A DNA stretch of 64,000 bases from Thermoanaerobaculia bacterium (GTDB lineage Bacteria > Acidobacteriota > Thermoanaerobaculia > Multivoradales > Multivoraceae). The DNA is taken from the NCBI GenBank assembly GCA_963664405.1, contig OY761158.1, positions 416,001 through 480,000 of the forward strand, read 5' to 3'. A program made the position numbers and the translations under genes. The notes under the pieces are model-generated. The model did not search any database, was not told the DNA's origin, and saw nothing but the letters and a program-made list of their open reading frames with translations. Positions 32,926-50,377 of the stretch are shown piece by piece; within the stretch, counting starts at the first letter, position 1; each line of letters opens with the position of its first letter.

Positions 32926-33668
32926 GAAGGCACAGCGAGAAAGTCGAGGTTGAGCGAAGGTTTCTGAAGCTTTGAGCATCCCCTATACCAAGAGCCCTCC
33001 GCGGAAGACCGCTGGGCAAGTCGAATCAACGGAACTGGAGGTAGGGGATGAAGAACAGAACGTTTCGTACCGCGCTCGGTTGTCTGTCGGTCTGCGCTTT
33101 GCTGGCCTCGGCCGCAGCTCCCGCTCACGCCGGGCCCGGAGAGCGCCGGCTCGATCTCGAGCAGGGCCTCAAATCAGAATCGCTCACGCCGGTACCGCAG
33201 GCCGAAGAGGCGGGTGGTGAGAACAGCGAACCGAGCAAGGCCCTCCGAGTCGAGGAGTTTCGCCTCCATGAGGCCGCCGAGGCCTATTCGCGCTCAGAGG
33301 CGGGGGTGGTGTTGATGGCTGCGAGAAAGCGCATCCCGTTGGCTGCGAGCGCAGTTTCCGGGATGGAGTGAGCTGAGGGCTTCGCGACCGCGGGAAAGCT
33401 AGGCCTTCTTCAGGAAGGGCGGCATCATCCCGCCGGAACGGCGGTCCGGGTGCGTGGTCCCGGCGGCGTGTTTGCGGTCGGAAGAGATGCGTGAGTCGGT
33501 GTAGGGCTTTGCAGTGCGGGCTCTGCTCTGATAGAGCAGGCCGACCAGAGACGGCGAGAGCCCGGGAAAGCGAAGTAGAAAACGCCCCGGGCTCTGCCCC
33601 AAACCGCAGCATTAGCTGCGCTTGCAGTATGGCAGAGAGTCGGGGTCGTCGTCGAATGGGAGGCGACG

Positions 33669-34064
33669 ATGCGACCGGACTACCGACTCTTCGACTGTGC
33701 TCGATGCCGTCGGCGTATCTCGCTGTGCTCGCACTGTGACCGTGGCCAGCGTTACTGCCGGGCTTGTGCTCTGGTGGCTCGTCGGGAATCGACTCGGGCG
33801 GCCGGCCATCGGTACCAGCGAAGCCTCCGAGGTCGGCATTGTCATGCCGCCCGTCAGGCCCGCTACCGTCGGCGCCAGCGCGAGCGGGCAGAGAAAGTGA
33901 CGCATCAGGGTACCCCAGGCGGTACTTCGGGGAGGACACTGTGTCGGATCGAGACTCCGAGGCGCGAAGTGCGCTACGACCCGAGGAATCCGCGATGCAT
34001 GCAGTGTGGAGAGGCCTGCCGAGAGTTTGTGCGAACGAGCTTTCGTCGTTGCCGACGGAGATAG
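33669..34064 (+). CDS. IS21-associated Cys-rich, Arg-rich protein (putative zinc finger)
   Basis: GGAGG SD; CARC-x6-CSHC-DRGQRY-CRAC, basic helix, KVTH, CMQCGEAC; homolog at 49622-50113. Confidence 0.8.
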   Translation: MRPDYRLFDCARCRRRISLCSHCDRGQRYCRACALVARRESTRAAGHRYQRSLRGRHCHAARQARYRRRQRERAEKVTHQGTPGGTSGRTLCRIETPRREVRYDPRNPRCMQCGEACREFVRTSFRRCRRR

Positions 34065-34068
34065 GGGC

Positions 34069-35577
34069 GTGATCGACGCACAGCTGCGCGGGGAGATCCG
34101 TCGTCTGTTCCTGGTCGAGAAGTGGAAAGTCGGCACGATCGCTCGACAGCTACAGCTGCACCCCTCAACCGTGCGCCGGGCGCTGGAGAAGTCCGGCGTG
34201 CTACCCCAGCAGCGACGAGGGAGGATGATCGATCCTTACCTGCCGTTCATCGAGCAGGTGCTCGGGACCTACCCACGACTGCCGGCGAGCCGTCTCTACA
34301 CCATGGTGGTGGAGCGCGGCTATCCAGGAGGCCCGGATCAGTTTCGCCACCTGGTGGCCTCGATGCGACCGAAGCCCCAGCGCGAGGCGTTTCTCTCGCT
34401 GCGCATGCTGCCAGGAGAGCAGGCGCAGGTCGACTGGGGCCACTTCGGTCGGCTCCGCGTCGGCCGGGCACATCGTCGGCTCTATGCCTTCGTCTTCGTG
34501 CTGTCGTTCTCGCGCACGGTCTTCGTGCACTTCACCCTCGACACTCGTCTCGAAACCTTCTTGCACGCTCACCAGCTGGCCTTCCACTACGTCGACGGCG
34601 TCGTCAGGACCGTTCTGTACGACAACCTGCGAACCGCGGTGATCGAGCGGCAGGGAACCGCGGTGCGCTTCCATCCCGTGCTGCTCGATTTCGCCAGCCA
34701 CTACGGCTTCCTTCCCACCGTCGCCGCGGTGGCTCGGGGAAATGAGAAAGGCCGCGTCGAGCGCGCAATCCGCTTCCTGCGAAGCTCGTTCTTCGGCGCC
34801 CGAACGGTGAGCGATTTGGATCGTCTGAATCGGCAGGTCCTGGAATGGTGCCAGAGGTCGCAGCGCAGACCCTGGCCGCAGGACCGACAGCGAACCGTGA
34901 AAAGCGCCCTGGCCCAGGAACGACCTCGACTGCTTGAGCTTCCCGGAGACGACTTCGAAACCGACCTGCGACTGGAGATCAAGGTCAGAAAGACGCCGAT
35001 CGTGCGCTTCGACCTCAACGACTACTCGGTGCCGCACAGTCATGTGCAGAGGACCGTCACGCTCCTCGCCAGCGAGCATCGGGTGCGGATCCTCGATGGC
35101 CAGGAGCTCCTCGCCGAGCACCCTCGCTCGTACTCCCGGGGCGAGCAGATCCTCGATCCTCAACACCTCGAGGAGCTCCTCGCTCACAAACGCAGGGCCC
35201 GACGACACCGGGGCTTCCATCGGCTGTTTTCCGCTGTGCCTCGATGCGAAGAGCTGATGCAGCAGCTCGCCGAGCGAGGCGAGAACCTCGGAACGCAGAC
35301 CGCCGGCCTGCTCCGACTCCTGCGCCAGTACGGCCCCCAGCGACTCGACAAAGCCGTGCGCGAAGCGCTCCTGAACCACGCACCGCGATTCCAGTCCGTC
35401 CGGCTCCTACTCGAACGGCACCAGCGCGGCCTCGGTCAGCCCCCGGCTTTACCGGTGCCGCTCAGCCAGGAGCTCCAACAGCGAGATCTCTCCGTGAGAC
35501 CGCACAACCTCGAGGACTACGACCAACTTGGAGGCAACGACGATGGCCCGACCCAGGAAGAGTCCAACGATCCCTGA
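34069..35577 (+). CDS. istA: IS21 transposase IstA
   Basis: N-terminal HTH; 'PGEQAQVDWG', 'LYDN', 'GNEKGRVERAI', 'FDLNDYSVP'. Confidence 0.96.
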   Translation: MIDAQLRGEIRRLFLVEKWKVGTIARQLQLHPSTVRRALEKSGVLPQQRRGRMIDPYLPFIEQVLGTYPRLPASRLYTMVVERGYPGGPDQFRHLVASMRPKPQREAFLSLRMLPGEQAQVDWGHFGRLRVGRAHRRLYAFVFVLSFSRTVFVHFTLDTRLETFLHAHQLAFHYVDGVVRTVLYDNLRTAVIERQGTAVRFHPVLLDFASHYGFLPTVAAVARGNEKGRVERAIRFLRSSFFGARTVSDLDRLNRQVLEWCQRSQRRPWPQDRQRTVKSALAQERPRLLELPGDDFETDLRLEIKVRKTPIVRFDLNDYSVPHSHVQRTVTLLASEHRVRILDGQELLAEHPRSYSRGEQILDPQHLEELLAHKRRARRHRGFHRLFSAVPRCEELMQQLAERGENLGTQTAGLLRLLRQYGPQRLDKAVREALLNHAPRFQSVRLLLERHQRGLGQPPALPVPLSQELQQRDLSVRPHNLEDYDQLGGNDDGPTQEESNDP

Positions 35578-36337
35578 CGAACCACTACGAGAGCTCGCCC
35601 GATCCCTCGGCTTCTACGCCCTCGTCGACGACTGGGGCACCTACCGAGAACAGCCCTGGCTCGAACAGCTGCTGCGCAAAGAAGAGGCCGAGCGCAAACG
35701 GCGCAGCCTCGAACGGCGCATCCGCACCAGCCGCGTCGGGCTCTTCAAGAGCATCGCCGACTTCGACTTCTCCTGGCCCCAGCGCATCGACCGCGAGCAG
35801 ATCCAGGATCTGCTCACCCTCCAATTCCTCGACGACATCACCAACGTCATCCTCCTCGGACCCAACGGTGTCGGCAAGACCATGATTGCCAAGAACCTCC
35901 TCTACCAGGCGCTGCAACGAGGGGCCACCGCCAGCTTCGTCACCGCCTCCGACATGCTCAACGATCTCGCCGTCCAGGAAACCCCCTCGGCGCTCCAGAG
36001 AAGGCTCTCCAAATACACCCGACCCTCGCTTTTGGCAATCGATGAGCTCGGCTATCTCTCCTACGACCACCGCCACGCGGATCTCCTCTTCGAGGTCGTC
36101 TCCAGGAGATACGGCAACAAGCCCATTCTTCTCACCACCAACAAGCCCTTCGCCGAATGGGCCGAGGTCTTTCCCAACGCCTCCTGCGTCGTCACTCTCG
36201 TCGATCGACTCACCCACCACGCCGAGATCGTCAAGATCGAGGCTAACTCCTATCGCCGCAAGGAGGCCAAGGAGGCTGCTGAAAAAAAGGCCAAGGACCG
36301 CGCCAAAAGGCGGAGCGCAGCACGACGACGCTCATGA
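35543..36337 (+). CDS. istB: IS21 AAA+ helper ATPase IstB
   Basis: 'DFDFSWP', Walker A 'GPNGVGKT', Walker B 'LAIDELGY', 'TTNKPF.EW', 'DRLTHH', 'SYR'. Confidence 0.96.
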   Translation: MARPRKSPTIPDEPLRELARSLGFYALVDDWGTYREQPWLEQLLRKEEAERKRRSLERRIRTSRVGLFKSIADFDFSWPQRIDREQIQDLLTLQFLDDITNVILLGPNGVGKTMIAKNLLYQALQRGATASFVTASDMLNDLAVQETPSALQRRLSKYTRPSLLAIDELGYLSYDHRHADLLFEVVSRRYGNKPILLTTNKPFAEWAEVFPNASCVVTLVDRLTHHAEIVKIEANSYRRKEAKEAAEKKAKDRAKRRSAARRRS

Positions 36338-36691
36338 CCCGAAGCCACTATCGGCGCCAGCTCCTCCGCCTCTATCGACTCCTTCCCGACACCCCGCACC
36401 GCTTCCACCACGGCGACCGCGTCATCGTCGACCAGCTCTTCGACCAAGACCTGCCTCTCACCGTCCTCCAGGCCGCCCTCCTCCTCGGCTCCGCCCGACG
36501 CGCATGCCGAGATCCGCGCCTACCAAAGCTCCAGCCCATCCGATCCCTCGCCTACTTTCTCCCCATCCTCCGAGAACTCCCCACGACGCCACCCCCCGAA
36601 GGGGTACCTCGACTATCTGCGCCACACCCTGAGTCACGCCTCGCGGGGACAAAAAACCGACTCGCAGCCAACTAAGTGCGCTTTCTCGTAG
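36334..36691 (+). CDS. IS21-associated small helical protein (apparent +1 frameshift at the G-run 36601-36604)
   Basis: ATGA coupling to istB; 'YRRQLLRLYRLLPDTP...IRSLAYFLP'; removing one G restores 'EGYLDYLRH', matching homolog 'PQYVRYILLRH'. Confidence 0.75.
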
Positions 36692-36850
36692 CCGGTAACA
36701 GGTGGCAGCCGCCGCGGCCGCCGAGGCCACTCCAAGGCGCCACGGCTTCGGACGGTGGCTCAAGAAGCACTGGTACGTTCCTGTGCTGGTAGGCGCCGCC
36801 ATCGGCTTTGCCGTCTCCGATGACAGCGACGATCCGAACGAGATAGACGA

Positions 36851-46953: not shown

Positions 46954-47045
46954 CCCCAGAAAACGCGCCTTCGGCCCGTTTTCCGGCCCATCCCCGCCTG
47001 AGAACTACTCGCCTGTCCGAATTCTCGGACACGTGTTATCGGCGG

Positions 47046-47399
47046 TCATAAAGTGCGGGATTCCGGCTGTGTAGTGGCGCTTTTGGTTTCATCCTCCTCG
47101 AGAAGGGACCGGTGCCGAAGGAGGATGTAGCGGACGTATTGAGGGTCGAGCTCGTCGTTGGTCAGGGCTCGATGTACGGAGCGGTAGTAGGCAAGTGAGT
47201 GAATCTGCGGCAGCGGATCGGTGCTGAGGCGCCGTCGCAAGGTGGCGAGTCGAATGGCATGGGCAAGCTCTTCGAGGGGGACGTTGGCTTGATAGAGCTT
47301 GTCGGCGATGGCCCAGTCTCGGCGCCGAGGTCTAGACGGGGTTTTAGGAGCGTCGAGGTAGAGGCGGATGAGCTCGGCGCGATACTCCTGTCGGATCAC
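47046..47399 (-). CDS. IS21-associated small helical protein
   Basis: GTGA coupling to the istB stop; 'YRAELIRLYLDAPKTP...DWAIADKLY...IHSLAYYRSV'; homolog of 36334. Confidence 0.8.
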   Translation of the reverse strand: MIRQEYRAELIRLYLDAPKTPSRPRRRDWAIADKLYQANVPLEELAHAIRLATLRRRLSTDPLPQIHSLAYYRSVHRALTNDELDPQYVRYILLRHRSLLEEDETKSATTQPESRTL

Positions 47400-48169
47400 G
47401 AGGTCTTCGCACTGCGCCGTCGAGGGCGAGTGCCGCTTCGGCGGGCCGAAGCGCGCTTCTTGGCGTGCTCCTTGGACTCCTTGAGCCGATAGGAATCGCC
47501 CTCGATGTTGACGAGCTCGCAGCGATGGACGAGGCGATCGACGATGGTGACGACGGTAGTAGCGTTGGGGAAGACCTCTCCCCATTCTCCAAAGGACTTG
47601 TTTGTGGTGATGAGAAGGGACTTATTTTCGTACCTGCGGGAAACGACCTCGAAAAGTAGATCGGCGTGGCGCGTGTCGTAGGACAGATATCCGAGCTCGT
47701 CAATGCAGAGCAGGGATGGGCGCGCAAAGAGCGCGAGCTTGCGCTGAAGGCTGGTCGAGGAGTCTTGTTCGGCGAGGGTGTTGAGCAGCTCCGAGGCGGT
47801 GAGGAATCGGGCGGTGGCTCCACGTAGTACGGCTTGATGGGCGAGATTCTTGGCAATGAGCGTCTTGCCGATGCCGTTTGGCCCTATCAAGACAGCGTTG
47901 TGCCCTCGGGCGAGCCACTCGAGCCGAAAGAGATCTTCGATCTGCTCGCGGTCGATCTTCTTGGGCCAATTCCAGTCGAAGTCGGCCAGCGGCTTGAAGG
48001 TGCCGAGCCGGGCCCGACCCAGGCGTCGCTCCAGTCCGCGACGGGCTCGCTCCTGCTCTTCCCAGTCGAGCAGGTCGGGGAGCCAGGGTTGGTTGGCGAC
48101 CTCATCCCAGTGGGCTAGGAGGCCATGGAGTTTCAGGGCTGTGGCACGCTCTTGGTCGGTGTTGTTCAT
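47396..48169 (-). CDS. istB: IS21 AAA+ helper ATPase IstB
   Basis: 'GPNGIGKT', 'LCIDELGY', 'TTNKSFGEW', 'DRLVH', 'GDSYR'. Confidence 0.96.
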   Translation of the reverse strand: MNNTDQERATALKLHGLLAHWDEVANQPWLPDLLDWEEQERARRGLERRLGRARLGTFKPLADFDWNWPKKIDREQIEDLFRLEWLARGHNAVLIGPNGIGKTLIAKNLAHQAVLRGATARFLTASELLNTLAEQDSSTSLQRKLALFARPSLLCIDELGYLSYDTRHADLLFEVVSRRYENKSLLITTNKSFGEWGEVFPNATTVVTIVDRLVHRCELVNIEGDSYRLKESKEHAKKRASARRSGTRPRRRSAKTS

Positions 48170-49665
48170 TCGTCGTCCTCCTCGTCGTTGGGGTTGTCGT
48201 AGTCGGCCAGTGCATGGGGAGTGACCGTGAGCTCCCGGATCCTGGGATCGTCGGGGAGCTGGACAGGCAGCGCGGGTAGGAGTCCCCGCTCGTGGCGCCG
48301 ACGATCGAGGATGAGTCGCACCGCTTCGGGATGCGGGGATCCTTTTTCGAGGGCCTCGTCGATCGCCACTGCAAGCTCCCTGGGTCCACTCTCGGCAAGG
48401 AGCTCGAGGAGTCTGGCGACGGCACTCGAGAGTCGTCTCTGCCGTCGGGCCAGCTCCCGCAGGAGCTCTTCGGCCTGGGGCACCGTACGCAGCAGGTAGT
48501 CCTGGCCGCGCTGTGTACGTGCCTCGCGTTTCTGTCGTTCCAGCTCTTCTAGGTGACGGGGGTCTTCGATGATCTGGCCCTTGTCCCAGGACCTTGTGTG
48601 CTCGGCGATGAGCTGCTCGCGATCGAAGATGCGCACACGCTCCGGGTCTGCGGCGATCTGTAGCGAGCGGGCGATGCGATCATGCGGGATCGAGTAGCGA
48701 TTCGCATCGAAGCTCAGGTAAGGAGTGCGCCGCGTGATCCGCTCGACCCATTCGTGGCAGGGGAAAGGCTGCGCCGGAAGGCTCACGAGATGAGAGCGCT
48801 CCTCGAGATAGGCCTGCTCGACGGTGCGACGCCGGTCCTGGGGCCACGGGCGCTTCATCGCTCGGTCGCGACACCACTCCAGAGCGTCCCGGTTCAGCGC
48901 TTCTCTGTCCCAGGTGCGACGCAGCGGAAAGAAGGAAGTTCTGACAAAACGAATGGCTCGTTCGACGCGACCTTTTTCATTTCCTCGTCTGGGAGCAACG
49001 GGCCTTGGATCAAAGCCGTAGAAGTCGGCGAGCTCGAGAAGCCGTGGATGAAAGCGAATGGCGCTGCGGCGCCGCTCGAGCACAGCGCTGCGCAGATTGT
49101 CGTAGAGGTGGATCTTGGCCAGACCCTCAAAGAAGGAGAAGGCGAGGACATGCCCGGTCAGGAAGCTCGGCAGACGAGCGTCGTAGAAGAAGTGCAGAAA
49201 GAGAGCTCGCGAGTAGCTCAGCACCATGACGAAGGCGTAGAGACGGCGCTCTCCGCCATCGACCTTTCGGGTGCCGAAGTGAGCCCAGTCCACCTGGGCC
49301 TGTTCGCCGGCAAGCGTACGGAGCACAAAGAAAGCCTCAGGCGCCTTGCGGGGGCGCAGGCCGAGCTCGGCAATGCAGTGGCGGAAGTGATCCTCCCCAC
49401 CGGGATAGTCACGCTTCTTGACCATCTCGTAGAGCACGCTCGCCGGCAGCTCCGGGTAGCGCTCAAAGACTTCCTGGATGAAGGGGACGAAGCGATCGAC
49501 CATGGACGCTCGTCGCGGCGATCGAGGCCGGCTCAGCCCTTCGCGTCGAAGGACTCGAGTGACCGTCGAGTGATGGATTCCCAGATGGCGGGCGATCGTG
49601 TTGCGCCGCCAGCCCTCCGACTCATAGAGACGGCGGATCTCGGCGGCGAGCTCGGGAGAGATCAT
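48166..49665 (-). CDS. istA: IS21 transposase IstA
   Basis: HTH; 'GEQAQVDW', 'LSYSR', 'LYDN', 'GNEKGRVERAI', 'FDANRYSIP'. Confidence 0.96.
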   Translation of the reverse strand: MISPELAAEIRRLYESEGWRRNTIARHLGIHHSTVTRVLRREGLSRPRSPRRASMVDRFVPFIQEVFERYPELPASVLYEMVKKRDYPGGEDHFRHCIAELGLRPRKAPEAFFVLRTLAGEQAQVDWAHFGTRKVDGGERRLYAFVMVLSYSRALFLHFFYDARLPSFLTGHVLAFSFFEGLAKIHLYDNLRSAVLERRRSAIRFHPRLLELADFYGFDPRPVAPRRGNEKGRVERAIRFVRTSFFPLRRTWDREALNRDALEWCRDRAMKRPWPQDRRRTVEQAYLEERSHLVSLPAQPFPCHEWVERITRRTPYLSFDANRYSIPHDRIARSLQIAADPERVRIFDREQLIAEHTRSWDKGQIIEDPRHLEELERQKREARTQRGQDYLLRTVPQAEELLRELARRQRRLSSAVARLLELLAESGPRELAVAIDEALEKGSPHPEAVRLILDRRRHERGLLPALPVQLPDDPRIRELTVTPHALADYDNPNDEEDDE

Positions 49666-50113
49666 CCCGCGCCCGCCTGCGCACCGGGCGTACTCGGCGC
49701 GATCGCAAGAAGTCGTGGCGGACAATCGGCTCGCAAGGATGGCGGCACAGCCTGCAGAGAAGCTCCTCGTTCCGACCTCCAACGGACAAGCCTTGCAAAA
49801 ACAACGGAAGCGGCGCGGTGGGCCATGACGCCACCGTCGCAGGGCAGCCCCCGGTGCGGCAACTGTGATGCGTCACTTTCTTTGAGCCTTGCTGCTTGCG
49901 ATCTCGATAGGCCTGCTGACGACGAGCATGCAAGCGGCGCCCTCGCGGCGTCTGCTGATAGCGACGCCCGGCCCCGCGAAGGCTGTGGCGCCGAGCCTCA
50001 TCCCGGCACTCCGGCGTGCAATAACGATGGCCGCGATCGCACCAAGAGCAAATGTAGACAGCTTGCCGGCAACGATCGCAAACGAAACGGCGACAATCGG
50101 GACGGCGGCGCAC
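49622..50113 (-). CDS. IS21-associated Cys-rich, Arg-rich protein (putative zinc finger)
   Basis: AAGGAGG SD before GTG at 50113; CDRC-x6-CSWC-DRGHRY-CTPEC, basic helix, KVTH, CRLCRHPC. Confidence 0.8.
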   Translation of the reverse strand: MRRRPDCRRFVCDRCRQAVYICSWCDRGHRYCTPECRDEARRHSLRGAGRRYQQTPRGRRLHARRQQAYRDRKQQGSKKVTHHSCRTGGCPATVASWPTAPLPLFLQGLSVGGRNEELLCRLCRHPCEPIVRHDFLRSRRVRPVRRRARDDLSRARRRDPPSL

Positions 50114-50377
50114 GGCCCAGGCCTCCTTCGGCCTGGACTTCGCCACCCGCAGGCGGAATACTCCCTCTTCTGGGGCGTCATACCCCAGGCCTTCCGGCGG
50201 TGGGCGGTCACCTTGCTTGGAGTCGCCCCCGCCGGTCTCCCCATACTCCCACCTGCCACGCTGCTCGCGCGCTCGCGCGCGACGATGATGCTGAAGAGAC
50301 TCTCAGCAGGAAACGCGGTCAGAAAGCCGGGATCGCGCGCTTCTTAAGCGCCGTTGACAACACGCTCCTAGCCTCCA

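What the first reader, a model, noticed from the sequence alone, without database searches (positions are those of the whole stretch)
33310..36700. Four-gene IS21 architecture shared by two divergent elements: Zn-finger protein, IstA, IstB, helical protein
Seen: this element and the one at 47034-50359 have different TIRs and TSDs (GGTGG vs ACACG) and clearly diverged IstA. Both still carry, inside their TIRs, the same two extra homologous ORFs in the same positions, each with an SD or stop/start overlap. Known: canonical IS21 encodes only IstA (DDE) and IstB (AAA+), the counterparts of Tn7 TnsB/TnsC and MuA/MuB. Inference: retention across divergence suggests these ORFs are core components, not cargo. 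They may define a subfamily with dedicated accessory factors for targeting, regulation or host-replication coupling.
Basis: partly seen in the sequence, partly recalled or inferred. Interest (0 to 1): 0.85.

Follow-up and report, generated by a model that had tools for sequence, protein, structure and literature searches.

The report
Four-gene IS21 insertion sequence clade
Two active jumping genes of the IS21 family each carry two extra conserved genes, a zinc-finger protein and a small helical protein distantly like the replication factor DnaD, and this layout marks a large, apparently undescribed branch of the family.

Summary
E1 (33310-36700, +) and E2 (47034-50359, genes on -) are bounded by imperfect TG...CA inverted repeats and 5-bp duplications. 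Each encodes ZnF, IstA, IstB and Hel in one direction. Identities between the two elements are ZnF 40%, IstA 50%, IstB 60% and Hel 38%.

Both elements look active: the genome holds 23 near-identical E1 copies and 8 E2 copies.

ZnF (eight invariant Cys) and Hel (five helices, pLDDT 91.5) match no Pfam or NCBIfam model. Both show purifying selection (dN/dS 0.37 and 0.38).

ZnF lies directly upstream of istA in 69 of 74 assessable loci from many phyla. All 32 ZnF-linked IstA sequences form one clade (support 100), apart from IS21, IS100 and IS1326.

The slot after istB is always filled, with overlapping stop and start codons. It holds Hel here. In proteobacterial relatives it holds an unrelated ~70-aa protein whose tail resembles the SSB C-terminus.

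Hel is linked only indirectly to DnaD-like proteins.

ZnF and Hel also occur fused, or adjacent to each other beside tyrosine recombinases, so they form a portable module.

Insertion sites show no target preference. Function is inferred: most likely DNA binding or coupling to host replication, not target selection.

The window's E1 copy has a frameshifted Hel.

The parts
33305..33309 (.). E1 left target-site duplication GGTGG
   Evidence: Same 5 bp at 36701-36705
33310..33349 (+). E1 left terminal inverted repeat (begins TGTTGATGG)
   Evidence: 32 of 40 positions complementary to 36661-36700
33669..34064 (+). E1 ZnF, 131 aa. Two N-terminal CxxC pairs with a CDRGQRYC motif, a basic helical hairpin, and a C-terminal CxxC.
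   Evidence: ORF. GGGAGG lies 7 nt before the ATG. No Pfam or NCBIfam match. Family alignment A2 has 8 invariant Cys. AF2 pLDDT 83.2.
34069..35577 (+). E1 istA (DDE transposase). GTG start 4 nt after the ZnF stop; the frame is open from 34006.
   Evidence: NF033546 IS21 transposase 244.8 bits against a cutoff of 160. rve and Mu-transpos_C_2 matches. Junction read.
35528..36337 (+). E1 istB (AAA+ helper ATPase)
   Evidence: PF01695 at 211 bits. NF038214 at 210.6 bits against a cutoff of 200.
36334..36675 (+). E1 Hel as it reads in this copy (113 aa). The ATG overlaps the istB stop (ATGA). An extra A near 36599 frameshifts the C-terminus.
   Evidence: 21 of 23 genomic copies lack the extra A and encode a 118-aa protein.
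36602..36691 (+). Segment that encodes the conserved Hel C-terminus (GYLDYLRHTL...) in the majority frame. It ends inside the right inverted repeat.
   Evidence: translation. YLDYLR is conserved in alignment A1.
36661..36700 (-). E1 right terminal inverted repeat
36701..36705 (.). E1 right target-site duplication GGTGG
47029..47033 (.). E2 target-site duplication ACACG (right end of the element in gene orientation)
   Evidence: Same 5 bp at 50360-50364
47034..47071 (+). E2 terminal inverted repeat next to Hel (begins TGTTATCGGCGG)
   Evidence: 27 of 38 positions match the other end
47046..47399 (-). E2 Hel, 117 aa. The GTG start overlaps the istB stop (GTGA). The stop codon lies 12 nt from the element end.
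   Evidence: Included in alignment A1.
47396..48169 (-). E2 istB
   Evidence: PF01695 at 203.9 bits. 60% identical to E1 IstB.
48166..49665 (-). E2 istA (ATG at 49665; frame open from 49782)
49622..50146 (-). E2 ZnF, 174 aa. Its 3' end overlaps the first 44 nt of istA.
50322..50359 (-). E2 terminal inverted repeat next to ZnF
50360..50364 (.). E2 target-site duplication ACACG

Best explanation
E1 and E2 are two active members of a distinct, widespread clade of IS21-family insertion sequences. In this clade the mobile unit holds four co-oriented genes inside the terminal repeats:
- a Cys8 zinc-finger protein with a basic helical hairpin (ZnF)
- the DDE transposase IstA
- the AAA+ helper IstB
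- a small protein whose start codon overlaps the istB stop

In these two elements the fourth protein is Hel, a five-helix domain distantly related to DnaD-like (DDBH2-type) replication-initiation domains. These points are shown here.

The following is inferred. ZnF and Hel act together as a portable, two-part nucleic-acid-binding accessory factor made alongside IstA and IstB. It most likely binds element or strand-transfer DNA and connects the transposition intermediate to the host's replication or repair machinery (primosome or gap repair). It probably does not choose target sites.

My odds are about 0.85 that these are dedicated accessory genes of the clade. They are about 0.4 that the role is DNA binding or coupling to host replication.
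For: Element structure and activity.
- Anatomy and homology between E1 and E2.
- The genome holds 23 E1 copies at 99.9-100% identity and 8 E2 copies.
- A 5-bp duplication flanks 18 of 23 E1 copies and 7 of 8 E2 copies.

The two extra genes are real.
- The ZnF family has 232 word-based hits and 8 invariant Cys.
- The Hel profile finds 1668 cluster representatives at E<=1e-3 and 930 at E<=1e-10.
- AF2 mean pLDDT is 91.5 for Hel and 83.2 for ZnF.
- dN/dS is 0.37 for ZnF and 0.38 for Hel.

Linkage to istAB.
- IstA is adjacent to ZnF in 69 of 74 genome loci with at least 300 nt downstream.
- 63 of the 80 kept metagenome loci have ZnF-IstA-IstB-Hel.
- All 32 ZnF-linked IstA sequences form one clade with SH-aLRT 100.

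The slot after istB.
- Among 54 loci with IstB, 12 have Hel and 38 have the ~70-aa protein, almost all with a 4-nt overlap. Two end at the contig edge and 2 are disrupted or odd.

ZnF and Hel as a module.
- Four divergent natural ZnF~Hel fusion proteins exist, 47-54% identical to each other.
- Four loci have a fused ORF and 8 have adjacent ZnF and Hel without istAB. All three distinct contexts examined lie upstream of tyrosine recombinases.
- In other IS21 lineages Hel is fused to a winged-helix N-terminus after istB.

The replication theme.
- hhalign of the Hel profile against a single-copy chromosomal family gives 97.8% probability, E 1.2e-12.
- A member of that chromosomal family matches phrog_7498, 'DnaD-like helicase loader', at 1.4e-11.
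- The winged-helix N-terminus matches phrog_186, 'DnaD-like helicase loader', at 1.4e-4.
- Hel helix IV carries Y-x3-[VI]-x3-L, like the DDBH2 motif YxxxIxxxW.
- In the replacement protein, 29 of 34 distinct sequences end in an acidic stretch followed by PF. E. coli SSB ends ...DFDDDIPF.
- IstB belongs to the DnaC/DnaI-like AAA+ group (weak DnaC and DnaI matches; otherwise established knowledge).
Against: - No experiment bears on function.
- The DnaD link is indirect. PF07261 and phrog_7498 do not hit the Hel ORFs in this genome at E<=1.
- Foldseek finds nothing significant for Hel in the PDB or BFVD (best E 4.8 and 1.3). It finds nothing for ZnF.
- The tryptophan of YxxxIxxxW is not conserved in Hel.
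- Hel follows the TniB-like ATPase only in this genome and one near-identical genome. The other 5 related loci have no Hel.
- The module also occurs with tyrosine recombinases, which have no AAA+ partner. A role tied to IstB is therefore not required.
- Five of 74 ZnF loci have no IstA next to them.
- The SSB-like tail belongs to relatives outside this window. Its meaning is inferred from resemblance alone.
- The window's own E1 copy and one other copy carry a frameshifted Hel. They may have been mobilised in trans or be recent mutants, so a requirement for Hel in cis is not shown.
Confidence: 0.55

Rival explanations
1. ZnF and/or Hel are element-encoded regulators. They would be repressors or translational modulators that keep transposase expression low, like IS1 InsA, IS911 OrfA or Mu Ner. 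They would bind the left-end promoter region or the terminal repeats.
For: - ZnF is the first gene. It lies 360 nt (E1) or 214 nt (E2) from the left end and has a very basic helical hairpin.
- In E2 versus its diverged variant, the ZnF and Hel ends co-diverge with the terminal regions (dS 0.23), while istAB stays more similar (dS 0.07-0.11). This would fit proteins matched to their own ends.
- Small DNA-binding regulators are common in insertion sequences (established knowledge).
Against: - A regulator matched to its own ends would not be expected to move as a fused or adjacent module onto tyrosine-recombinase elements.
- Nor would Hel be expected to be swapped for an acidic-tailed 70-aa protein unrelated to it.
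- The mosaic divergence can equally be gene conversion of istAB.
- No promoter-like site was found to anchor the idea.
Confidence: 0.2
2. ZnF and Hel are a target selector that docks on the AAA+ IstB, in the way TniQ/TnsD docks on TnsC. They would direct insertion to particular sequences, structures or replication features.
For: - Hel, or its replacement, always overlaps the stop codon of the AAA+ gene, here and in the third element T3.
- TniQ-family selectors also carry zinc fingers (recalled).
- IS21 has no reported selector (passage seen in PMC10293859), so the niche is open.
Against: - The 18 E1 and 7 E2 sites with clean 5-bp duplications show no consensus.
- Orientation relative to replication is 14:9 for E1 and 5:3 for E2.
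- Neither protein matches TniQ or TnsD in Pfam.
- The module also occurs without any AAA+ partner, next to tyrosine recombinases.
Confidence: 0.08
3. The extra genes are passengers that benefit the element or host in some unrelated way, for example counter-defence or addiction. They would not take part in transposition.
For: - The module is portable between unrelated mobile elements.
- The fourth slot is exchangeable.
- One ZnF-Hel-recombinase locus lies next to a DruA-like gene.
- The accessory genes have a higher dN/dS than istAB.
Against: - Their positions are fixed and they are translationally coupled.
- Hel ends inside the right terminal repeat.
- They are retained across a clade spanning many phyla.
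- None of the 8 proteins tested matches PADLOC.
- The elements carry no other cargo.
Confidence: 0.1
4. The extra ORFs are chance open frames in 63% G+C DNA.
For: Many long spurious ORFs overlap the element on both strands.
Against: - Protein-level conservation across phyla, with invariant cysteines.
- 1668 profile hits for Hel.
- dN/dS below 1.
- Confident folds.
Confidence: 0.01

Closest known systems
Canonical IS21-family elements (IS21, IS100, IS1326, ISPsy4, ISSen3, ISBce16, ISBcen28)
   Same: - IstA DDE transposase followed by the IstB AAA+ helper, with overlapping or abutting genes.
- TG...CA terminal repeats and short target duplications.
- Both proteins pass the NCBIfam IS21 models.
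   Different: - Named members share only 26-33% IstA identity with E1 and fall outside the ZnF clade.
- Their plasmid records annotate no co-oriented gene before istA or overlapping the istB stop, in 7 of the 7 records fetched that carry a co-oriented istB.
- E1 and E2 are 3.3-3.4 kb with four genes. The literature states two ORFs (passage seen in PMC10122671).
Tn7-like TnsB/TnsC with TniQ/TnsD, and Mu A/B
   Same: A DDE transposase plus an AAA+ regulator, with an extra small protein encoded after the ATPase. The T3 element of this genome also has TG...CA ends and 5-bp duplications.
   Different: - Neither ZnF nor Hel matches TniQ or TnsD.
- There is no site-specific insertion.
- The extra proteins also travel with tyrosine recombinases.
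DnaD/DnaB (DDBH2) proteins and phage replisome organiser plus DnaC/DnaI-like loader pairs
   Same: - Hel is a small five-helix domain with A-x3-A and Y-x3-[VI]-x3-L in the penultimate helix.
- It is linked by profile to a chromosomal family that matches a 'DnaD-like helicase loader' PHROG.
- In other IS21 lineages Hel follows a winged-helix N-terminus, as the DDBH2 domain does in DnaD.
- It is encoded next to IstB, a relative of DnaC/DnaI.
   Different: - No direct match to PF07261 or to the PHROG.
- No significant structural hit.
- The tryptophan of the motif is absent.
- The context is a transposon, not a replication module.
SSB C-terminal tail (DDDIPF)
   Same: The ~70-aa protein that replaces Hel in proteobacterial members ends in an acidic stretch followed by PF in 29 of 34 distinct sequences, for example ...NDEIPF and ...VDDDMPF. 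E. coli SSB ends ...DFDDDIPF. This tail is the docking site for many genome-maintenance proteins (passage seen in PMC5531588).
   Different: - It is not an SSB: there is no OB fold and it is only ~70 aa.
- It is not in this window.
- Binding has not been tested.
IS66-family elements (TnpA, TnpB, TnpC)
   Same: An insertion-sequence family whose unit contains conserved small accessory genes of unclear role beside the transposase (annotation seen; otherwise recalled).
   Different: The proteins and the transposase are unrelated to those here.

Membership tests
IS21 family | IstA-type DDE transposase | tested here: met
   NF033546 at 244.8 bits against a cutoff of 160. rve and Mu-transpos_C_2 matches.
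IS21 family | IstB AAA+ helper encoded directly after istA | tested here: met
   NF038214 at 210.6 bits against a cutoff of 200. PF01695 at 211 bits (E1) and 204 bits (E2).
IS21 family | Imperfect terminal inverted repeats ending TG...CA, with short target-site duplications | tested here: met
   Arms match at 32 of 40 (E1) and 27 of 38 (E2) positions. A 5-bp duplication flanks 18 of 23 E1 and 7 of 8 E2 copies; two more E1 copies show 6 bp by eye.
IS21 family | Two-ORF unit (istA and istB only) | tested here: not met
   Four conserved ORFs lie inside the repeats. The two-ORF rule is quoted from PMC10122671. These elements are therefore IS21-family by their enzymes but not by gene content.
DnaD/DnaB DDBH2 domain (Hel) | Match to the Pfam DnaB_2 model (PF07261) or to a DnaD-like profile | tested here: not met
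   No Pfam match. PF07261 and phrog_7498 searched over the whole genome do not hit the Hel ORFs at E<=1.
DnaD/DnaB DDBH2 domain (Hel) | YxxxIxxxW motif in the penultimate of five helices | tested here: inconclusive
   The model has five helices. Helix IV carries Y74-x3-[VI]-x3-L82, so the tryptophan is not conserved. The motif is taken from PMC2978336.
DnaD/DnaB DDBH2 domain (Hel) | Indirect profile link to annotated DnaD-like proteins | tested here: met
   Hel profile A3 against chromosomal family A4: 97.8% probability, E 1.2e-12. An A4 member matches phrog_7498 at 1.4e-11. The same PHROG hits the A4 homologue in this genome at 2.6e-11.
DnaD/DnaB DDBH2 domain (Hel) | Structural similarity to solved DnaD C-terminal domains | tested here: not met
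   Foldseek against the PDB gives a best E of 4.8, and no DnaD entry is among the 18 rows. In BFVD, 'replisome organizer', 'Replication initiation and membrane attachment' and 'DnaD-like' rows appear only at E 1.4-4.4.
TniQ/TnsD target selectors | TniQ or TnsD domain | tested here: not met
   ZnF and Hel have no such Pfam match. The only TnsD hit is weak (E 0.0011, below cutoff) and lies in the HTH region of E2 IstA.
TniQ/TnsD target selectors | Directed or site-specific insertion | tested here: not met
   No consensus in 25 reconstructed sites and no replication-orientation bias.
Anti-phage defence or counter-defence proteins | Match to a PADLOC model | tested here: not met
   None of the 8 proteins tested matches at E<=0.01.

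The most novel reading that the evidence does not exclude
A large IS21 clade carries its own means of engaging the host replication-restart machinery. After the DnaC-like IstB it encodes either a DnaD-like protein (working with a zinc-finger DNA binder) or a mimic of the SSB C-terminal docking peptide. The strand-transfer intermediate would then be handed directly to the host primosome or gap-repair proteins. The IstB plus Hel pair would be the transposon counterpart of a phage helicase-loader plus replisome-organiser module, which hints that IS21 helper genes descend from such a module. The same ZnF plus Hel unit has been taken up by tyrosine-recombinase elements.
Probability: 0.25. Interest if true: 0.9.

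Novelty: new variant of a known kind. Interest (0 to 1): 0.68.

Why it matters
IS21 is currently a structural model for how AAA+ ATPases control DDE transposases. It is described as a two-gene element with no known accessory or targeting factor.

This work points to a widespread, active clade with two further conserved proteins. Neither belongs to a described family, and annotation pipelines often miss them.

The clade offers a natural experiment: the fourth gene exists in at least three forms (Hel alone, winged-helix plus Hel, and a protein with an SSB-like tail). This makes the long-standing question of how transposition intermediates are passed to host replication and repair directly testable.

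The results also define two new protein families, one of which has more than 1600 cluster representatives.

Tried and rejected
Searches that found nothing useful.
- Pfam, NCBIfam, PHROGs and PADLOC on ZnF and Hel: no family.
- Sequence search of the PDB with both profiles and with the chromosomal homologue: only chance-level rows.
- Foldseek of both models against the PDB, and of Hel against BFVD: nothing significant.
- ESM Atlas: the nearest clusters are unnamed. Among named clusters, the best that carries a functional name (second in the listing) is 'Replication initiation and membrane attachment domain-containing', at a score of only 0.75, so it is a lead and not evidence.
- Complex prediction on ZnF with Hel gave no answer.

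Ideas tested and dropped.
- ZnF-IstA fusion or programmed frameshift. The 'longer' search found 5 proteins of 231-274 aa, and none had a transposase Pfam domain. In many loci ZnF and istA do not overlap. One Thiotrichales locus (L056) has both in one frame, but its istA is broken.
- Homology between the first ORF of T3 and ZnF: hhalign probability 0.04% (BLASTP).
- Homology between the ~70-aa protein and Hel: probability 0.1%. The ~70-aa protein has no meaningful Pfam match: the best E among the 16 members scanned is 0.093, each family hitting a single member.
- My passing guess that the 878-aa protein P0221, which has two Hel repeats, has a primase-like N-terminus. It got no support and I dropped it.
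- Hel as a general partner of TniB-like ATPases: 0 of 5 related loci in other genomes have it.

Uninformative scans.
- The promoter and terminator scan of E1 found no promoter-like site, and terminator-like sites only at chance level.
- Expression. Three metatranscriptome runs gave one exact 247-nt contig inside istB. The other pieces were diverged and came from other organisms. Nothing covered ZnF or Hel, so nothing can be said about their transcription.

Not available.
- Supplementary files of the papers were not opened. The supplements of PMC10122671 (IS21 organisation figure) and PMC10293859 (neighbourhood tables) could list extra IS21-linked genes.
- ISfinder and TnPedia could not be consulted.

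Full report
1. THE OBSERVATION

E1 is bounded by the arms 33310-33349 and 36661-36700, which are complementary at 32 of 40 positions. GGTGG is duplicated on both sides.

E2 runs from 47034 to 50359. Its ends match at only 27 of 38 positions, so the repeat finder did not list them. They begin with the same TGT. ACACG is duplicated on both sides.

Each element carries four ORFs on one strand. The middle two are istA and istB. They match the NCBIfam IS21 transposase and helper models above cutoff, and Pfam rve, Mu-transpos_C_2 and IstB_IS21.

The outer two are homologous between the elements. ZnF is 40% identical (E 2e-22) and Hel 38% (E 5e-12). IstA is 50% and IstB 60% identical.

The genes are tightly packed:
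- In E1 the ZnF stop lies 4 nt before the IstA GTG, with GGAGA upstream.
- The Hel start overlaps the istB stop as ATGA in E1 and GTGA in E2.
- Hel ends inside the right terminal repeat.

2. ACTIVITY, AND A DEFECT IN THE WINDOW'S COPY

The window lies in a single 6.78-Mb contig. That genome holds 23 E1 copies:
- 21 full length
- 1 lacking the last 24 nt
- 1 split by an insertion

All are 99.9-100% identical. It also holds 8 E2 copies, one of them a variant at 95% identity and one doubly interrupted.

A clean 5-bp duplication flanks 18 of 23 E1 copies and 7 of 8 E2 copies. Two further E1 copies show 6 bp by eye.

21 of the 23 E1 copies are one base shorter than the window's copy. The window's copy and one other have an extra A near 36599. 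This replaces the last 27 residues of a 118-aa Hel, including the family-wide GYLDYLR motif, with an unrelated 22-residue tail. A DNA run holds both forms; it may come from the same sample as the assembly. So the copy under the finding probably encodes a crippled Hel.

Three other IS21-type loci in the genome have IstA only 25-30% identical to E1 and E2. They have no ZnF or Hel nearby. Two of them are partial or disrupted.

3. ARE THE EXTRA ORFS GENES?

Neither protein matches Pfam, NCBIfam, PHROGs or PADLOC.

ZnF:
- It has 232 word-based relatives, and every one that carries a source name is called 'hypothetical protein'.
- In a 28-sequence alignment, eight cysteines are invariant, together with CDRG..YC, RYQ, HA.RQ and a conserved VTHQG-type segment (T78 and H79 invariant).
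- The AF2 model (pLDDT 83.2) shows two N-terminal hairpins, a long basic helical hairpin, a disordered linker and a C-terminal CxxC knuckle.

Hel:
- The profile finds 1668 cluster representatives at E<=1e-3, and 930 at E<=1e-10, among 1.84 billion proteins.
- The model is a confident five-helix bundle (pLDDT 91.5).

Selection, measured between E2 and its 95% variant:
- dN/dS: ZnF 0.37, Hel 0.38, IstA 0.11, IstB 0.15.
- The two ends of the element, which hold ZnF and Hel, are more diverged (dS about 0.23) than istAB (0.07-0.11). This is a mosaic pattern that I did not resolve.

4. DISTRIBUTION AND LINKAGE

A scan of one genome per species found 347 ZnF-encoding stretches. The 80 best come from Acidobacteriota, Planctomycetota, Burkholderiales, other Beta- and Gammaproteobacteria, Mesorhizobium and Hydrogenophaga plasmids, and other groups. 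Three of these loci are 100% identical to E1 and lie in an Acidobacteriota MAG, so the window's genome is probably of that phylum.

Among those 80 loci:
- 74 have at least 300 nt downstream of ZnF, and 69 of these have IstA adjacent. The exceptions are L074, L098, L105, L107 and L108.
- 41 have at least 2.9 kb downstream. Of these, 38 have IstA, 34 have IstA and IstB, and 11 have Hel.

A metagenome scan used a ZnF~Hel fusion profile as query, so it is biased towards loci with these genes. It found 490 stretches, of which 80 were kept:
- 63 have ZnF-IstA-IstB-Hel
- 4 have ZnF and Hel in one ORF
- 8 have them adjacent without istAB
- 2 have partial istAB
- 3 are cut or otherwise different

In 401 genomes of the window's phylum, the Hel profile hits 41. 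Of these, 22 are strong hits (E<=1e-13), often in 7-11 copies. The other 19 are weak single-copy hits, and those examined (10 loci) belong to a chromosomal family described below. One of the 22 is the unpublished genome G049.

5. THE IstA TREE

I built a tree of 50 IstA sequences (quick search, SH-aLRT support only, midpoint root).
- All 32 ZnF-linked sequences form one clade with support 100.
- IS21, IS100, IS1326, ISBce16, ISPsy4, ISSen3 and ISBcen28 fall outside it. These named elements are only 26-33% identical to E1 IstA.
- Their plasmid records annotate nothing before istA or overlapping the istB stop.
- Inside the clade, the Hel-bearing elements, including E1 and E2, form the deeper branches. 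The proteobacterial elements form one nested subclade (support 90).

6. THE FOURTH SLOT

In proteobacterial clade members the A1 Hel profile finds nothing after istB. However, annotated plasmids show a 63-71-aa 'hypothetical protein' that overlaps the istB stop.

Among 54 loci with IstB:
- 12 have Hel
- 38 have this small protein, nearly always with a 4-nt overlap
- 2 end at the contig edge
- 2 are disrupted or odd

The 34 distinct small-protein sequences share a W[ST]PEQALAV..LLDDLR..IW.HY core. In 29 of 34 the C-terminus is acidic and ends in PF. This resembles the E. coli SSB C-terminus ...DFDDDIPF. That tail is the conserved docking peptide for many genome-maintenance proteins (passage seen in PMC5531588; abstract start of PMC7913777 seen).

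The small protein is unrelated to Hel and matches no Pfam family.

In a 3502-bp element found in 6 copies in Mesorhizobium and Hydrogenophaga, all four genes lie inside the repeats. Those repeats begin TGTTAGCGGCGGTC, close to the E2 ends.

7. WHAT HEL IS

Direct tests for DnaD membership fail. Pfam DnaB_2 and phrog_7498 do not hit the Hel ORFs in this genome. Foldseek returns nothing significant.

The indirect evidence is consistent:
- The Hel profile aligns with a single-copy, ~230-aa chromosomal family of the same phylum at 97.8% probability, E 1.2e-12.
- A member of that family matches the C-terminal part of phrog_7498, 'DnaD-like helicase loader', at 1.4e-11 (the same hit in this genome is).
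- In a second, distant IS21 lineage the gene after istB encodes a ~250-aa protein. Its C-terminal half is Hel. Its N-terminal half is a winged-helix-like domain matching phrog_186, 'DnaD-like helicase loader', at 1.4e-4. This is the DnaD domain order.
- Helix IV of Hel carries Y-x3-[VI]-x3-L, preceded by A-x3-A in helix III. This echoes the YxxxIxxxW and A166/A170 features of DDBH2 (passages of PMC2978336). The tryptophan is not conserved.
- Weak RepB_primase_C matches recur (E 0.0065-0.1).

I therefore call Hel DnaD-like in the sense of a probable distant relative, not a member.

8. THE MODULE IS PORTABLE

- Four divergent natural proteins (47-54% identical to one another) join ZnF and Hel in one chain.
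- Loci with fused or adjacent ZnF and Hel but no istAB lie directly upstream of tyrosine recombinase genes in all three distinct contexts I examined: L171, L175/L176 (two tandem recombinases) and L238/L236. A fourth such locus, L173, has an IS110 transposase downstream.
- This genome has a third element, T3, in 5 copies of ~3.56 kb. It has TGAGAGTGATCA ends and a 5-bp duplication in 5 of 5 copies.
  - It encodes a Cys-rich HTH protein unrelated to ZnF.
  - It encodes an rve transposase nearest to the IS481 model but below its cutoff, and an AAA_22 ATPase.
  - Overlapping that ATPase gene, it encodes a Hel homologue 41% identical to E1 Hel.
- Five T3-like loci in other genomes lack Hel, so this association is local.

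9. MECHANISM

Shown:
- the gene content
- conservation of both extra genes
- their coupling to istA and istB
- clade structure
- portability of the module
- absence of target preference: no consensus in 25 sites, and orientation relative to replication of 14:9 (E1) and 5:3 (E2)

Inferred:
- ZnF (a zinc-stabilised basic hairpin) and Hel (a DDBH2-like bundle) bind nucleic acid together. They are made in step with IstA and IstB.
- Because the module also serves tyrosine-recombinase elements, and because Hel can be replaced by a protein with an SSB-tail-like end, the common denominator is more likely the host's replication or repair machinery, or DNA architecture, than the IstB ATPase itself.
- Regulation remains a serious rival. 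Target selection and pure cargo are less likely.

10. COMPARISON WITH WHAT IS KNOWN

By their enzymes, ends and duplications these are IS21-family elements. By gene content they break the stated two-ORF rule (passage in PMC10122671).

A 2023 survey states that IS21 has not been reported with a target selector (passage in PMC10293859).

Five full-text searches and passages read in PMC4608216, PMC7371123 and PMC11208146 turned up no description of these ORFs. I could not consult ISfinder, TnPedia or the supplements, so an existing unannotated entry cannot be excluded.

Verdict: this is a real, ordinary-looking but apparently undescribed variant of a known kind, with an open and testable functional question.

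Noticed in passing
window 36590-36610 (extra A near 36599): The window's E1 copy and one other (G000 C1:2716753-2720143) carry a one-base insertion. It frameshifts Hel and removes the conserved GYLDYLR C-terminus. The other 21 of 23 copies lack the insertion. A DNA run holds both forms.
   Followed up: yes
L025 (G000 C1:537000-541800); copies at about 264978, 537661, 4399924, 6174109 and 6610183: T3 is a third element of ~3.56 kb in 5 copies, with TGAGAGTGATCA ends and 5-bp duplications. It encodes a Cys-rich HTH protein, an rve transposase (nearest to the IS481 model but below cutoff), an AAA_22 ATPase and a Hel homologue. Five related loci in other genomes lack Hel.
   Followed up: partly
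L032-L106, L159-L161 (after istB): A ~70-aa protein family overlaps the istB stop in proteobacterial members of the clade. In 29 of 34 distinct sequences its acidic C-terminus ends in PF, resembling the SSB tail DDDIPF. It matches no Pfam family and is unrelated to Hel.
   Followed up: partly
L131-L138, L154, L155; G000 C1:6684555-6684806: A single-copy chromosomal family of ~230 aa occurs in the window's phylum (9 of 9 genomes of one genus). Its N-terminal domain is homologous to Hel and matches a 'DnaD-like helicase loader' PHROG. In L154 its neighbours look like a BirA-like ligase and valyl-tRNA synthetase, judged by eye only.
   Followed up: partly
L027 (G000 C1:2512933-2516246) compared with window 47034-50359: The 95%-identical E2 variant is a mosaic. 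The ZnF and Hel ends have dS of about 0.23, while istAB has 0.07-0.11. This could be gene conversion of the middle or exchange of the ends.
   Followed up: no
G000 C1:2641757-2650333 and 6339246-6345987: These are nested insertions. One E2 copy is interrupted twice, once by a 1.85-kb insert and once by an E1 copy. One E1 copy is split by a ~3.3-kb insert. In a near-identical genome (L150), E1 sits inside a T3 copy.
   Followed up: no
window 46966-47012: The sequence just outside the Hel-side end of E2 (...cggcccgttttccggcccatccccgcctgagaactactcgc) recurs almost unchanged as the target of an E1 copy at G000 C1:6281845. Two other E1 copies, at 5444194 and 6746429, lie in copies of another short repeat. 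This may be a preference for repeats or only chance.
   Followed up: no
L141, L142, L143, L151, L152, L156, L158: A distant IS21 lineage encodes a ~250-aa winged-helix plus Hel protein after istB. In L151 this protein is in frame with IstB as one 501-aa ORF.
   Followed up: partly
L175 3638-5999: A DruA-like (Druantia) gene and a DDE_5 transposase lie next to a ZnF-Hel-recombinase-recombinase cluster in a metagenome contig.
   Followed up: no
L159-L161 (plasmids of Methylotuvimicrobium, Paraburkholderia and Aromatoleum): In deposited annotations the ZnF gene is missing, truncated, or replaced by an opposite-strand call. Features under the ZnF match are listed as 'none' for 13 of 18 plasmid records, and one further record has no annotation at all.
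   Followed up: partly
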